64,000 nucleotides of DNA, taken from Alphaproteobacteria bacterium. Its GTDB lineage: Bacteria; Pseudomonadota; Alphaproteobacteria; SP197. The notes under the pieces are model-generated. The model was given only the letters and a program-made list of their open reading frames with translations. It made no database searches and had not been told where the DNA came from. The stretch spans positions 896,001 through 960,000 of the forward strand of contig OZ219917.1 of the NCBI GenBank assembly GCA_964291415.2, written 5' to 3'. The position numbers were made by a program, and so were the translations under genes. Shown one piece after another: positions 21,879 through 40,653 of the stretch. Every line of letters begins with the position of its first letter. Positions within the stretch are counted from its first letter, which is position 1.

Positions 21879-21953
21879 GCCGCCGTAGCTCAGTGGTAGA
21901 GCGCACCCTTGGTAAGGGTGAGGTCCTCAGTTCAATCCTGAGCGGCGGCACCA
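21879..21953 (+). tRNA. tRNA-Thr (GGT)
   Basis: GCCGCCG/CGGCGGC acceptor stem, TAGCTCAGTGGTAGAGC D arm, CACCC-TTGGTAA-GGGTG anticodon arm, GTTCAATC T loop, encoded CCA. Confidence 0.97.
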
Positions 21954-22062
21954 CACTCGTGACGATATCCGATCCCGGTCCCCGGCACCAAGGCCGCGTC
22001 GGATTGAACGCGGCGTCGTGACGTGCGTTATGGTGAGGCGTTCCCCCAGGGAGGTGGCCGCC

Positions 22063-22748
22063 ATGATGCTGACCCCGACAGAGCTCGAACGCATGACCAT
22101 CTTCGTCGTGGCCGAAATGGCAAGGCGGCGCAAGGCGCGGGGCCTCAGGCTCAACCACCCCGAAGCCCATGCCTACATCGCCGACACCCTGCTCGAAGGG
22201 GCGCGGGAGGGGCGCAGCCTCGCCGACCTTGCAGGCTGGGGCGCCACGCTGCTCTCCAGCGGCGACGTGATGCCGGGCGTGGGGGCGCTCATGCCGATCG
22301 TCCAGGTCGAGGGACTCTTTCCGGATGGAGCCAAACTGATCACGGTACACCAGCCCATTCGTCCGCACGCCGACGGCGCGCAACCGGGAGAGGTGATGAC
22401 CCCCGACTCGGACATCACGCTCAACGCCGGGCCGTCGGCGGGTCGAGCTCGCGGTGCTCAACACGGGCGACCGGCCGGTCCAGGTGGGGAGCCACCATCA
22501 CTTCTTCGAGGCCAATGCCGAACTCGATTTCGATCGCGAGGCGGCATTCGGCATGCGCCTCGACATCGCGGCCGGAACGGCCGTTCGCTTCGAACCCGGC
22601 GAGAGCCGAACCGTCTCGCTGGTGGCCTATGGCGGCGACGGCATGGTCGAGGGGTTCAACCGCCTTGTCGAAGGATCCCTGGATGATGCGGACATCCGCG
22701 AGAGGGCCCTGGAGCGGGCCCGTGACACGCGGCTTCAGGGGGGCGTGA
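22063..22748 (+). pseudogene. ureAB: Fused urease gamma-beta subunit with two apparent +1 frameshifts
   Basis: Gamma: MLTPTELER...RRRKARGLRLNHPEA...FPDGAKLITVHQPI. Beta: ITLNAG | [28 protein letters not shown]...AVRFEPGE. Shifts at about 22430 and 22726. Confidence 0.85.
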
Positions 22749-22749
22749 C

Positions 22750-24459
22750 ATGGCGAGCATGTCGAGGGCGCGCTACGCCGGAACCTACGGGCCGACCACG
22801 GGCGACCGCGTCAGGCTTGGCGACACGAGTCTCCTGGCCGTGGTCACCAGGGATCACCTCGTGGCCGGTGACGAACTGACCACGGGGGCGGGCAAGAGCT
22901 ACCGCGACGGCATGGGAATGGACTGCGGCGCCCGTCACGACAGGGGAGCCCTCGATCTCGTCATTCACAACGCGCTGGTCATCGATCCCGTGATCGGAAT
23001 CGTGAAGGCCGACATCGGCGTGCGCGACGGCCGCATCGCCGGGATCGGCAAGGCGGGCAATCCGCGAATCATGGATGGCGTCCATCCCGGACTGGTCTGC
23101 GGACCCTCGACGGTCGTCGCCCATGGAGAACGTCTCATCGCCACGCCGGGCGGCATCGATGTCCATGTCCACTTCAAGTCACCCGACCTGGTGCGCCATG
23201 CCCTTGCAACCGGCCTCACCACCCTCGTGGGCGGTGGCCACGGTCCGCTCTTCAGCATCGATTCCGGCGGCGCCTGGACCACCGGGCGCATGCTGCAGGC
23301 CACCGACGCCCTGCCGATGAACTTCGGTTTTCTCGGGCGCGGCAGCACGAGCCGGGCCACGGGGATACGTGAACATGTCGCCTCAGGCATCATCGGCATC
23401 AAGGTGCACGAGGACTACGGAGCGAGCCCGGCTGCGATCGACACGGCGCTTGGCGTCGCCGACGACGTCGACTTCCAGGTGCAGCTCCACACGGACACGC
23501 TGAACGAGTCGGGCTTCTACGAATCCACCATGGCGGCCATCGCCGGGCGCACCATCCACATGTATCACACGGAAGGTGCGGGCGGCGGTCATGCTCCCGA
23601 CATCATCCGCTGCAACGGTGAAGCCCATTGCCTGCCGTCTTCGACCAATCCGACCAATCCCTTCACCGTCAACACCTTCGACGAGCACCTCGACATGGTG
23701 ATGGCGGTGCATCACCTGTCTGCGGATTCACCCGAGGATGTGGCCTTCGCCGAGAGCCGGATCCGCCGCACCACCACGGCGGCCGAAGACATCCTTCATG
23801 ATCTCGGGGCGATTTCCATGTTCGGCTCCGACAGCATGGGCATGGGACGGGTGAACGAGGTCGTGGCGCGCTGCTGGCAGCTGGCCAGCAAGATGCGGGA
23901 TCAGCGCGGTCCTCTCGAAGGCGAGCCGGTGGAGGGCGCCGACAACGCGCGCATCCTGAGATACCTCGCCAAGTACACGATCAACGCGGCCCGGGTCTTC
24001 GGCATCGATCACGAGGTGGGCAGTCTGGAGACCGGGAAAATGGCCGATATCGTGCTGTGGAAGCCGGCGTTCTTCGGACTCAAGCCGCAGACCGTGATCA
24101 AGGGCGGTTTCACCACCTTTGCGGCAATCGGCGACGCCGCTGCGAGCATCGGCCACGCCGATCCGGTTCTCGAGAGACCGGCCTGGGGCATGTGCGGTCG
24201 CGCGCCAGCGTCCATCGCGACAACGTTCGTCCACCCCTCGGCGATCGGGCAGGATCTGGCTGGCAGGCTGGACCTGGCGAAACCCCTCACGGCGATCGGA
24301 CCGACCCGCCGGCTCACCAAGGCCGACATGCTCCACAACGATGCCCTGCCGGAGATTCGCGTCGATTCGCAGACCTTCGAGGTGATGGTCGATGGCGAGG
24401 CGGCCTGGTGCGAACCCGTCGATCACGTGGCCCTGGGACAACTCTACCTTCTCGGATAG
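22750..24459 (+). CDS. ureC: Urease alpha subunit-like protein (divergent)
   Basis: [63 protein letters not shown]. Confidence 0.92.
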
Positions 24460-39098: not shown

Positions 39099-39584
39099 AT
39101 GGTTGAAGTGGGCATCATCATGGGAAGCCAGTCGGACTGGGACACCATGCGCCATGCCGCCGAGACACTGGGAGAAATCGGCATCCCGCACGAGGTCAGG
39201 ATCGTTTCGGCCCACCGCACCCCCGACCGACTCTTCACCTATGCCGAGGCTGCCCATGGCCGCGGTCTCAAGGTCATCATCGCCGGTGCCGGCGGCGCGG
39301 CGCATCTTCCGGGCATGACGGCGGCCAAGACCTCTCTTCCGGTGCTTGGCGTGCCTGTCGAAAGCCGGGCGCTCAATGGCCTCGACAGCCTGCTTTCCAT
39401 CGTGCAGATGCCGGCCGGAGTGCCGGTCGGCACGCTTGCCATTGGCAAGTCGGGCGCAATCAATGCCGCCCTTCTGGCTGCCGCCATCGTCGGTCTCGTC
39501 AATCCGCACGTGGCCCGGGCCCTGGAGGACTGGCGGAGCCAGCAGACCGCATCCGTGGCCGAGCATCCCGACGCCGATGGATGA
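39099..39584 (+). CDS. purE: N5-carboxyaminoimidazole ribonucleotide mutase
   Basis: [37 protein letters not shown]. Confidence 0.97.
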
Positions 39585-40653
39585 TGACAAGCGTGTGGTC
39601 CCGCCGGGTGGTGTCATCGGCATCGTCGGCGGCGGTCAGCTCGGTCGCATGGCGGCCCTCGCCGCCGCGGCGCTGGGCTACCGTTGCCATGTGTTCTGCC
39701 CCGCAGAGGATAGTCCTGCCGTGGAGGTGGCCCATGCCGCGACCATCGGAGCATACGATGATGCCGGCAGTATCGATGCCTTTGCCTCAGGCGTGGATGT
39801 CATCACCTTCGAGTTCGAGAACCTGCCGGTGGAGTCCTTCCGGCACATGGCCCGGCACGCGCCGGTACGTCCCCACTGGCGTTGCCTGGAAATGACCCAG
39901 CACCGGGTGGTCGAAAAGGACTTTCTCAACCGCCATGACTGCGCCACCGCACCCTACGCCGCCCTTCCCGGACCCGGCGAACGGCTCGCAACGACCGGCA
40001 GCCCGGCGATCCTCAAGACGGCGCGCATGGGCTATGACGGCAAGGGTCAGGTCCGCGTCACACGCCAGCGGGATCTCGAGGACGCCTGGGCAGCCATGGG
40101 GCGCCGGGAGGCCATCCTGGAAGGCGTCGTCGACTTCACCATGGAGGCCTCGGCCATCGTTGCCCGCGACATCAGGGGCGTCATCCGGGCTTTCGATGTT
40201 GTCCGGAACACCCATCGCGACGGCATCCTCGCGGAAACCCGGGCGCCCGCACCCCTGCCCGAACGTGTGGCCGATGGCGCCGTGGCCATGGCCGGCCGGC
40301 TCGCAGAGGCTCTCGACCTCGTCGGTCTCCTGGCAGTGGAGATGTTCGTTGCCCCCGGCGATCGCCTTCTGGTGAACGAACTTGCCGCCAGGCCCCACAA
40401 TTCGGGGCACTGGACCATCGATGCCTGCCGCACCAGCCAGTTCGAACAGTTCATCCGCGCCGTCGCCGGACTGCCCCTGGGCGATCCGTCACGCCACAGC
40501 AACGCCGTGATGACCAATCTCCTGGGTGACGACGCATCCTCCTGGCACGACATTCTCGGCGAGGGCGACGCCAAGCTGCACCTCTACGGCAAGACCCAGG
40601 CACGCCCGGGCCGCAAGATGGGCCACGTCACGCGGCTGTTCCCGCTGGAGTGA
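39577..40653 (+). CDS. purK: N5-carboxyaminoimidazole ribonucleotide synthase
   Basis: [48 protein letters not shown]. Confidence 0.96.

What the first reader, a model, noticed from the sequence alone, without database searches (positions are those of the whole stretch)
22063..24459. Divergent, accessory-free urease paralogue with a remodelled substrate pocket next to tRNA-Thr
Seen: UreC keeps all six dinickel-ligand positions (HVH, K in [24 protein letters not shown] in GSDS). Substrate-contacting segments differ from canonical urease: flap MLMVCHH becomes MVMAVHH (Cys319, Klebsiella numbering, to Val); SDSQAMGR becomes SDSMGMGR (Ala363 position Gly); the GGGTGP..GT.ATT.TPG loop carrying Ala167 becomes the shorter [19 protein letters not shown] becomes HEDYG. 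Gamma and beta are fused, no ureD/E/F/G or Ni transporter is adjacent, and the pair starts 110 bp after tRNA-Thr. Known: Helicobacter mustelae UreA2B2 is an iron urease encoded without accessory genes. Inference: this may be a urease-fold enzyme for a non-urea substrate (substituted urea or amide) or with a different metal. It is the best candidate here for an undescribed enzyme system.
Basis: partly seen in the sequence, partly recalled or inferred. Interest (0 to 1): 0.75.

Follow-up and report, generated by a model that had tools for sequence, protein, structure and literature searches.

The report
Divergent urease paralogue with broken small subunit
This is one of two unusual urease gene pairs in an uncultured marine alphaproteobacterium; it belongs to a conserved side-branch of ureases with an altered active-site lid, most likely still relies on nickel helper genes kept elsewhere in the genome, and its small-subunit gene is broken in this assembly.

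Summary
Three corrections apply.

1. ureAB carries two private one-base insertions (about 22430 and 22725). These are absent from the closest genomes and from contigs of 4 of 4 public runs.
2. The short loop and the Ala363-to-Gly change are not special. Fused-type ureases in complete ureE-F-AB-C-G-D operons share them.
3. The genome is not accessory-free. It has an intact, unlinked ureEFGD cluster, a second divergent ureAB-ureC pair and no canonical-pocket UreC.

The truly clade-specific changes are:
- loss of the lid Cys;
- Trp to Tyr in HEDWG;
- Gln to Met in SDSQ.

Sequences with these changes form a well-supported clade (99 SH-aLRT). They are under purifying selection (dN/dS 0.06-0.11). 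They are never next to ureG or ureF (0 of 15 and 0 of 14, against 60 of 60 and 56 of 56 for the sister clade). In the genus, ureG is present exactly where a UreC is present (22 of 23 genomes; one has neither).

Best reading: a nickel urease isozyme matured in trans, with this copy probably inactivated. A non-urea substrate is not excluded (about 0.25).

The parts
21879..21953 (+). tRNA-Thr (anticodon GGT), upstream neighbour
   Evidence: ARAGORN. No copy of its 3' end or other att-like direct repeat flanks the urease pair.
22049..22054 (+). Shine-Dalgarno-like GGGAGG before the ureAB start
   Evidence: Read directly from the sequence.
22063..22431 (+). ureAB piece 1: gamma domain, linker and first residues of the beta domain (frame 1)
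   Evidence: Pfam Urease_gamma 1-99/99, E 1.2e-37. NCBIfam NF009671 bifunctional gamma/beta 160 bits. Translation.
22429..22432 (+). first private one-base insertion (GG to GGG), shifts the frame
   Evidence: Alignment with intact L009/L010 orthologues. Left out in contigs of runs X1, X2 and X20. Also seen against G006.
22433..22726 (+). ureAB piece 2: beta domain (frame 2)
   Evidence: Pfam Urease_beta E 1.8e-35. Translation.
22723..22727 (+). second private one-base insertion, shifts the frame again
   Evidence: Alignment. Left out in contigs of X1, X2, X3 and X20. Also seen.
22728..22748 (+). ureAB piece 3: last six codons and TGA (frame 0), one base before the ureC ATG
   Evidence: Translation RGFRGA*. 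Same ending in L009/L010.
22750..24459 (+). ureC, intact, 569 aa
   Evidence: ORF. TIGR01792 757.5 bits against cut-off 680 and NF009686 801 bits. AlphaFold2 model pTM 0.92, TM 0.93-0.95 to solved urease alpha chains.
23164..23172 (+). H139-V-H141, two nickel ligands
   Evidence: Both His invariant in 43 of 43 aligned clade A and B proteins.
23230..23277 (+). shortened loop [16 protein letters not shown] (stands where K. aerogenes Ala167 lies)
   Evidence: A deletion of 3 residues is shared with the sister clade B; clade A lacks one more.
23395..23421 (+). GIKVHEDYG: carbamylated-Lys position 218, His220, Asp222, and Tyr223 in place of the Trp of HEDWG
   Evidence: Trp is present in 66 of 66 canonical-pocket rows and replaced throughout clade A.
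23692..23718 (+). lid (flap) DMVMAVHHL: Val320 in place of the lid Cys; catalytic His321 kept
   Evidence: His321 invariant in 43 of 43.
23824..23850 (+). GSDSMGMGR: Asp361 nickel ligand; Met363 in place of Gln
   Evidence: Gly364 is also found in clade B.

Best explanation
The window holds one member ('W type') of a conserved side-branch (here called clade A) of the fused gamma/beta urease family.

Shown:
- The alpha subunit keeps the full dinickel site, the catalytic lid His and the Arg that holds it, and the urease fold.
- It is under purifying selection.
- Its clade has left the ureE-F-AB-C-G-D operon of its sister clade.
- In this genus one unlinked ureEFGD set goes with one to three UreC paralogues.

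Inferred:
- The enzyme is a nickel amidohydrolase loaded in trans by that UreEFGD set.
- Its substrate is most likely still urea.
- The clade-specific changes (lid Cys to Val/Ile, Trp to Tyr in HEDWG, Gln to Met next to the Asp ligand) change lid behaviour, kinetics or sensitivity to thiol-reactive inhibitors, not the chemistry.

In this assembly the small-subunit gene ureAB is broken by two one-base insertions. This copy is therefore probably (about 0.55) a very young pseudogene. The other divergent pair (T type, contig C2) would then be the working enzyme of this genome.
For: Enzyme identity:
- TIGR01792 urease alpha equivalog passed, 757.5 bits against 680.
- 53% identity over the full length to K. 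aerogenes UreC, and TM 0.93-0.95 to solved ureases.
- Invariant in 43 of 43 aligned proteins: ligands H139, H141, K218, H247, H273, D361, plus H220, H321 and R339.
- Of the ten residues the review PMC7433671 (passages read) names as enclosing the K. aerogenes pocket, seven are unchanged. Ala167 (loop) and Ala363 (Gly) are changed in the same way in clade B, and both contact urea through backbone carbonyls. Only Cys319 differs from clade B.

Clade:
- 99 SH-aLRT with the trait columns removed, sister to clade B.
- 96 of 192 listed database hits are of the divergent kind.

Selection:
- dN/dS 0.062-0.109 against 7 orthologues.

Accessory genes in trans:
- ureE, ureF, ureG and ureD are intact at C2 with no structural gene between ureF and ureG.
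- 22 of 23 genus genomes have both UreC and one ureG; G007 (99% complete) has neither.
- All 15 genomes with clade A UreCs only keep ureG, at least 215 kb from any UreC where both lie on one contig.
- 5 of 5 clade-A-bearing genomes outside the genus also have ureG.
- A NicO-family nickel/cobalt transporter is present.

Urea:
- A substrate-binding protein scores 484.5 bits against 494.8 for TIGR03669 (urea ABC transporter). UrtB-, UrtD- and UrtE-like genes lie beside it, about 10 kb from ureG. In 6 genus genomes (G000, G004, G006, G012, G014, G019) the two genes lie 9-11 kb apart; in G002 and G010 they lie 23 and 27 kb apart (with ureG places).
- This genome has no canonical-pocket UreC.

Broken ureAB:
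-.
- The W type is dispensable: present in 14 of 23 genus genomes, with a decayed remnant at the same murA/aminotransferase locus in G005.
Against: - No activity, metal or substrate was measured.
- The Trp of HEDWG is invariant in 66 of 66 canonical-pocket rows yet replaced in all of clade A. The lid motif differs between subclades but is fixed within each of them. Up to three paralogues with different pockets coexist in one genome. This is the pattern expected of changed specificity.
- The urea-transporter-like binding protein is just under its cut-off. It was found in only 11 of 23 genus genomes at that score level.
- Co-occurrence counts come from close kin and are not independent.
- Against 'pseudogene': ureC shows no relaxation on its own branch (2 non-synonymous against 14 synonymous private changes). 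Contigs of 4 of 4 public runs, one from an RNA library, lack both inserted bases. The bin has 8.99% contamination, so a consensus error is possible.
- ureAB is one of two long ORFs, of 46 compared, whose frame is broken relative to G006. So frame breaks are not unique to it.
Confidence: 0.5

Rival explanations
1. Clade A enzymes, the W type included, are nickel-dependent amidohydrolases of the urease fold that have moved to a substrate other than urea (a substituted urea, a guanidine-like compound or a small amide). They are still matured by UreEFGD. Each subclade, with its own lid motif, has its own substrate.
For: - Lid motifs are subclade-specific and fixed (T[VI]HH, VAHR, LCHT/S/M, ACHL, MAHN and others). 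The otherwise invariant Trp of HEDWG is lost.
- Two or three paralogues with different pockets occur per genome, sometimes beside a canonical one.
- The sister T type keeps an MFS transporter directly downstream in 17 loci of the genus.
- An SBP_bac_5 binding protein lies next to the pair in L011-L014.
- Five literature searches found no characterised member.
Against: - Every catalytic and metal-binding residue is kept.
- Relative to clade B, which sits in complete urease operons, the only changed residue among the ten named pocket residues is the lid Cys. The review says that Cys only helps to orient the neighbouring His.
- 15 genus genomes have no other UreC yet keep ureEFGD. In several of them a urea-transporter-like system lies near it.
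- Gene neighbourhoods give no consistent hint of another substrate.
Confidence: 0.25
2. The pair is an accessory-independent urease that uses iron or another metal, as H. mustelae UreA2B2 does. That would explain why it stands alone.
For: - No accessory gene lies beside any clade A pair: 0 of 15 with ureG, 0 of 14 with ureF.
Against: - ureG co-occurs with UreC in 22 of 23 genus genomes and is kept in all 15 genomes that have clade A UreCs only.
- In this genus the canonical-lid fused UreCs (L103, L106, L114, L130) are also unlinked from accessory genes, so unlinking is a trait of the lineage and not of the divergent pocket.
- Five clade A loci keep ureD directly downstream.
- The protein is no closer to UreB2 (3qga, 562 bits) than to K. 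aerogenes UreC (623 bits).
Confidence: 0.07
3. The two insertions in ureAB are consensus errors of a mixed-strain metagenome bin. The organism has an intact, working W-type urease.
For: - All contigs that cover the two sites in runs X1, X2, X3 and X20 lack the extra bases. One 90-nt X1 contig is otherwise identical.
- ureC shows no relaxed selection on the window's branch.
- Bin contamination is 8.99%.
- Another ORF of the window (39319-40650) also differs in frame from G006.
Against: - The laid contigs differ from the window at other positions (for example 12 of 816 letters). They are therefore relatives, not this strain, and cannot vouch for the assembly.
- Two breaks fall in one 0.69-kb gene, while the 1.7-kb ureC and its neighbours are clean.
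- The W type has been lost or has decayed in other members of the genus.
Confidence: 0.45

Closest known systems
Fused gamma/beta ureases in ureE-ureF-ureAB-ureC-ureG-ureD operons (clade B here; NCBIfam NF009671 and NF009686), e.g. loci of Pseudomonas syringae (L056, L068), Methyloversatilis universalis (L035), Bradyrhizobium (L053)
   Same: - Fused gamma/beta subunit and a 569-570-aa alpha subunit.
- Shortened loop with I-D-[CS]-G-G, and Gly in SDSxGMGR.
- All ligands kept.
- 61-65% identity.
- Sister clade in the trees.
   Different: - Clade B keeps MVCHH and HEDWG. It is flanked by ureF (56 of 56) and ureG (60 of 60).
- Clade A has varied lids and Y/F/L/I for Trp, one more residue deleted from the loop, and no flanking ureF or ureG.
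- I found no biochemical study of either clade.
Klebsiella aerogenes urease UreABC (PDB 2KAU, 1FWJ) and Sporosarcina pasteurii urease
   Same: - Same fold (TM 0.93-0.95).
- 51-53% identity.
- Same six ligands, His219, Asp221, catalytic His320 and Arg336 equivalents.
   Different: - Three separate subunits there, and the long GGGTGPA.G..ATTCTPG.W loop.
- Lid Cys319, Trp in HEDWG and Gln/Ala in SDSQAMGR.
- Accessory genes in the same operon.
Helicobacter mustelae UreA2B2 (iron urease, PDB 3QGA)
   Same: A second urease encoded as two structural genes without accessory genes beside them (PMC2846917, passage read).
   Different: - Here the genome keeps ureEFGD, and its presence tracks UreC.
- There is no special sequence closeness (562 bits against 623 for K. 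aerogenes).
- The fusion there is of the Helicobacter type.
The T-type paralogue of the same genome (C2:1137647-1140049; L007 7642-10049, minus strand)
   Same: - Same clade A and same ureAB-ureC layout.
- 60% identity.
- Unlinked from ureEFGD.
   Different: - Lid MLCHT, SDAEGMGR and HEDLG.
- Intact ureAB.
- Present in 22 of 23 genus genomes.
- MFS transporter directly downstream in 17 loci.

Membership tests
Urease alpha subunit (TIGR01792 equivalog; EC 3.5.1.5) | Score over the curated cut-off of the family model | tested here: met
   757.5 bits against cut-off 680; NF009686 801.3 against 354.
Urease alpha subunit (TIGR01792 equivalog; EC 3.5.1.5) | Two His, carbamylated Lys, two His and Asp that hold the dinickel centre | tested here: met
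   H139, H141, K218, H247, H273 and D361 are present and invariant in 43 of 43 relatives.
Urease alpha subunit (TIGR01792 equivalog; EC 3.5.1.5) | Catalytic lid His, the Arg and Asp that hold it, and substrate-binding His | tested here: met
   H321, R339, D222 and H220. The helix-turn-helix lid is modelled as H307-320 and H328-335.
Urease alpha subunit (TIGR01792 equivalog; EC 3.5.1.5) | The ten residues that enclose the K. aerogenes pocket (Ala167, His219, Glu220, Asp221, Gly277, Cys319, His320, Arg336, Ala363, Met364; PMC7433671) | tested here: inconclusive
   Seven are identical. The Ala167 loop is remodelled and Ala363 is Gly, both as in clade B. Cys319 is Val.
Urease alpha subunit (TIGR01792 equivalog; EC 3.5.1.5) | Intact partner small subunits | tested here: not met
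   ureAB has two frame-shifting insertions in this assembly. It matches as one full-length piece (residues 1-231) in 10 orthologous loci (L089, L090, L092-L098, L100); L091 matches over 1-215 only and L099 is cut by its contig end.
Urease alpha subunit (TIGR01792 equivalog; EC 3.5.1.5) | Hydrolysis of urea | not testable with these tools
   Needs an enzyme assay.
Fused gamma/beta urease family (NF009671 ureAB + ureC) | Gamma and beta domains in one gene directly before ureC | tested here: met
   Pieces score 160.4 and 138.3 bits on NF009671 positions 1-127 and 136-226. Orthologues are single frames of about 231 aa. The family branch has 100 support.
Fused gamma/beta urease family (NF009671 ureAB + ureC) | Operon ureE-ureF-ureAB-ureC-ureG-ureD | tested here: not met
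   No accessory gene lies within about 10 kb. 0 of 15 and 0 of 14 clade A loci have ureG or ureF beside them.
Accessory-independent iron urease (UreA2B2-like) | Works without UreD/E/F/G; the genome context does not need them | tested here: inconclusive
   Independence itself cannot be tested here. The genome keeps ureEFGD, and ureG tracks UreC in 22 of 23 genus genomes.
Accessory-independent iron urease (UreA2B2-like) | Closest relative among solved ureases is UreB2 | tested here: not met
   3qga_C 562 bits against 623 bits for K. aerogenes.

The most novel reading that the evidence does not exclude
Clade A is an uncharacterised radiation of nickel amidohydrolases of the urease fold in uncultured, largely marine and sponge-associated proteobacteria. 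Several paralogues with different active-site lids share one unlinked UreEFGD maturation set, and each hydrolyses a different small ureide, guanidine-like compound or amide. The W type of this window would be one such specificity.
Probability: 0.25. Interest if true: 0.8.

Novelty: new variant of a known kind. Interest (0 to 1): 0.4.

Why it matters
- Urease is treated as a one-substrate enzyme with an almost invariant pocket. A large, selected side-branch that varies the lid motif and drops an invariant Trp, while keeping all catalytic residues, is a natural experiment on what the lid does. It is also a possible source of thiol-insensitive ureases or of new specificities.
- One unlinked ureEFGD set serves up to three structural paralogues. 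So 'no accessory genes nearby' should not be read as 'accessory-independent' when genomes are annotated.
- For nitrogen budgets of sponge and marine holobionts, counting every ureC as urea use may over-count or under-count. Some copies may act on other compounds, and some, like this one, may be broken.

Tried and rejected
- tRNA-linked island: no direct repeat of the tRNA 3' end and no integrase signal around the pair. The locus is syntenic (murA, tRNA-Thr, ureAB, ureC, class IV aminotransferase) in the close genomes. Dropped.
- Promoter and terminator scan: nothing above the shuffles.
- Substrate hints from neighbours of clade A loci: ABC permeases with a MalK-type ATPase, NUDIX, dehydrogenase, two-component system, aminotransferase and an M24 hydrolase. 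Nothing is shared across lineages. The SBP_bac_5 proteins beside L011 and L012 hit nickel-NikA models best, but far under cut-off (151 and 134 bits against 600). They cannot be called nickel or substrate binders.
- Bacterial UrtA model TIGR03407: best 229 bits against cut-off 492.75. UrtD TIGR03411: only generic ABC ATPase-level hits. HupE/UreJ: not found in G000.
- Public runs are contigs only, with small shares of words. I draw no conclusion on habitat or expression from them beyond the two indel sites.
- Raw gap counts against G006 (145 gaps, 137 not a multiple of 3) proved hard to read, because most are compensating clusters. I replaced them by the ORF-split test.
- My strict motif regexes flagged 25 proteins as 'motif miss'. 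I did not follow these up and rely on the alignment instead.
- Literature: five full-text searches found nothing on this clade or on fused ureases without the lid Cys. The Nitrospirales paper PMC12342949 (passages read) was not relevant. PMC6077230 (passages) added only a reference. PMC3156221 is not held. Supplements were not consulted.
- The structure model gives fold and confidence only. No coordinates were available, so the pocket could not be measured.
Full report
WHAT IS THERE

tRNA-Thr(GGT) lies at 21879-21953. After a gap of 109 nt and a GGGAGG ribosome-binding motif, a fused gamma/beta urease gene starts at 22063. Pfam finds Urease_gamma and Urease_beta. NCBIfam finds the 'bifunctional urease subunit gamma/beta' model NF009671 in two pieces.

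ureC (22750-24459) is an open 569-aa frame. It passes the urease-alpha equivalog TIGR01792 (757.5 bits against 680) and is 53% identical to K. aerogenes UreC over its whole length. An AlphaFold2 model built on 43 relatives (pLDDT 86, pTM 0.92) matches solved urease alpha chains at TM 0.93-0.95.

THE SMALL-SUBUNIT GENE IS BROKEN HERE

Aligned with the intact orthologues of the two nearest named genomes (L009 at 96% and L010 at 94% UreC identity), the window has one extra base at about 22430 (GG to GGG) and one at about 22725. The reading frame therefore runs 1, then 2, then 0, and ends in RGFRGA-TGA one base before the ureC ATG.

Evidence on whether the breaks are real:
- Logan contigs of four public runs from four studies, one from an RNA library, cover one or both sites. 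All of them lack the extra bases. They differ from the window elsewhere (for example 12 of 816 letters), so they show that relatives are intact, not that the assembly is wrong.
- Within the genus, UreAB matches as one full-length piece (residues 1-231) in 10 other W-type loci (L089, L090, L092-L098, L100). L091 matches over residues 1-215 only, and L099 is cut by its contig end.
- In an ORF-by-ORF comparison with about 60 kb of syntenic DNA from G006, ureAB is one of two long ORFs, of 46 matched, whose frame is broken in the window. It is the only one broken twice.
- ureC shows no decay. It has 2 non-synonymous against 14 synonymous private changes, and dN/dS of 0.062-0.109 against seven orthologues.

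I put a real, very recent inactivation at about 0.55 and a consensus error at about 0.45.

THE GENOME IS NOT ACCESSORY-FREE

The assembly (5 contigs, 4.44 Mb) has a second ureAB-ureC pair on contig C2 (60% identical UreC, intact 231-aa UreAB). It has no other UreC. It also has intact ureE, ureF, ureG and ureD in a row at C2:512.6-515.3 kb, with no structural gene among them.

WHICH DIFFERENCES ARE SPECIAL

Among 79 related loci from species genomes, 63 have a UreC with the canonical lid MVCHH and HEDWG. These sit in the operon ureE-ureF-ureAB-ureC-ureG-ureD:
- ureG directly downstream in 60 of 60;
- ureF directly upstream in 56 of 56;
- ureD downstream in 58 of 58, counting only loci with enough flank.

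These canonical-lid fused ureases already have the shortened loop (GGSLGPIT---VGIDCGG, against GGGTGPA.G..ATTCTPG.W in three-subunit ureases). They also already have Gly in SDSQGMGR. In addition, the review PMC7433671 (passages read) states that Ala170 and Ala366 of S. pasteurii contact urea through backbone carbonyls.

What sets the window's branch apart:
- the lid: Cys to Val/Ile, with Val to Thr/Ala before it;
- Trp to Tyr in HEDWG (Trp is present in 66 of 66 canonical-pocket rows);
- Gln to Met before the Gly;
- a few further fixed changes (N199S, T375C, I455T);
- one more deleted loop residue.

A CLADE, NOT DECAY

In a FastTree of 115 rows, and in an IQ-TREE of 54 rows from which the 54 trait columns were removed, all sequences with non-canonical lids form one clade. 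Support is 99 in both trees. This clade is sister to the canonical fused ureases (99 in the FastTree, 94 in the IQ-TREE), and both trees are rooted on three-subunit ureases. I call the two clades A and B.

Clade A has subclades with their own fixed lid motifs: T[VI]HH or AVHH with SDSMG and HEDY (the window); VAHR; LCH[TSMNK] with SDAEG and HED[LI] (the C2 copy); ACHL; MAHN and others. Of 192 database hits listed in two searches, 96 are of the divergent kind. Every one that carries a source name is called 'urease subunit alpha' and comes from a metagenome-assembled genome.

The metal ligands, His220, the lid His321 and Arg339 are invariant in 43 of 43 aligned clade A and B proteins.

None of 15 clade A loci has ureG beside it, and none of 14 has ureF. 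Five of 12 have ureD downstream.

ACCESSORY GENES IN TRANS

Among the 23 genomes of the window's genus, 22 have at least one UreC. The same 22 have exactly one ureG over its cut-off. G007 (99% complete) has neither. Where both lie on one contig they are at least 215 kb apart.

Typing every UreC by its motifs gives:
- the C2-like T type in 22 genomes;
- the window-like W type in 14, plus a decayed remnant at the same murA/aminotransferase locus in G005;
- canonical-lid fused UreCs in 4, also unlinked from accessory genes;
- three-subunit ureases in 3.

Fifteen genomes have clade A UreCs only, and all 15 keep ureG. Five clade-A-bearing genomes outside the genus also have one or two ureG genes and two or three UreC paralogues each. 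These genomes are kin, so the counts overstate independence. Even so, they fit nickel loading in trans, not an accessory-independent enzyme like H. mustelae UreAB2 (PMC2846917, passage read). The window protein is in any case no closer to UreB2 than to other ureases. A NicO-family transporter is present.

UREA OR NOT

For urea:
- The chemistry-bearing residues are all kept.
- Against clade B, only the lid Cys differs among the ten residues named as enclosing the pocket.
- This genome, which has no canonical-pocket UreC, carries a binding protein that scores 484.5 bits against a cut-off of 494.8 for the urea ABC transporter model TIGR03669. UrtB-, UrtD- and UrtE-like genes lie beside it, about 10 kb from ureG. 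The binding-protein gene and ureG lie 9-11 kb apart in 6 genus genomes (G000, G004, G006, G012, G014, G019) and 23-27 kb apart in G002 and G010.
- From memory, not from a call: K. aerogenes C319A keeps substantial activity, and Staphylococcus xylosus urease has Thr at this place. One search shows only that C319A/S/D/Y variant structures exist.

Against urea:
- The subclade-specific lids, the loss of an invariant Trp and the coexistence of two or three pocket variants per genome are what changed specificity would look like.
- The T type keeps an MFS transporter directly downstream in 17 loci.
- Neighbourhoods of clade A loci give no consistent substrate hint.

VERDICT

The inference 'accessory-free, other metal' is not supported. 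The inference 'other substrate' stays open at about one in four.

The thing itself is a new variant of a known kind: a selected, unlinked, lid-variant branch of fused ureases. It is represented here by a copy whose small-subunit gene is broken.

Noticed in passing
G000 contig C2:1136259-1140049 (L007 6259-10049, minus strand): The second divergent pair (T type: lid MLCHT, SDAEGMGR, HEDLG) is followed directly by an MFS transporter gene. That arrangement is kept in 17 loci of the genus, at 61-95% identity. It may be a substrate or product carrier.
   Followed up: partly
G000 contig C2:512672-515312 (L008 7672-10312) and C2:524083-529045: A stand-alone ureE-ureF-ureG-ureD cluster has the order of the fused-urease operon with ureAB-ureC missing. 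A urea-ABC-transporter-like system, just under the TIGR03669 cut-off, lies about 10 kb away. The binding-protein gene and ureG lie 9-11 kb apart in 6 genus genomes and 23-27 kb apart in two more.
   Followed up: partly
L134 (G005:C2:1733352-1738879): A decayed remnant of the W-type pair lies at the same murA/aminotransferase locus. UreAB is in two pieces and only about 174 residues of UreC are left.
   Followed up: partly
L015 4107-5813 and L130 (G012:C1:1817861-1822402): Two further damaged UreC genes. A clade A ureC of a Dongiaceae bin is split into frames of 287 and 254 aa. A canonical-lid fused ureC is cut short at about 538 aa.
   Followed up: no
window 39319-40650 (near 40255): Relative to G006 the window lacks 13 bases inside a long ORF, so the frame changes there too. 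This is either another broken gene or an assembly difference.
   Followed up: no
G000 C1:426-1913 vs C2:14891-16378; C3:19567-20250 vs C4:77916-78599; C3:99634-100239 vs C4:952-1557: Pairs of ABC ATPase hits on different contigs have identical scores and frame lengths. This suggests duplicated stretches between contigs, in line with the 8.99% contamination figure.
   Followed up: no
L011 9827-11422; L012 670-2298: Orphan SBP_bac_5 binding proteins lie next to clade A urease pairs in two lineages. Their best but weak hits are to nickel-binding NikA models.
   Followed up: partly
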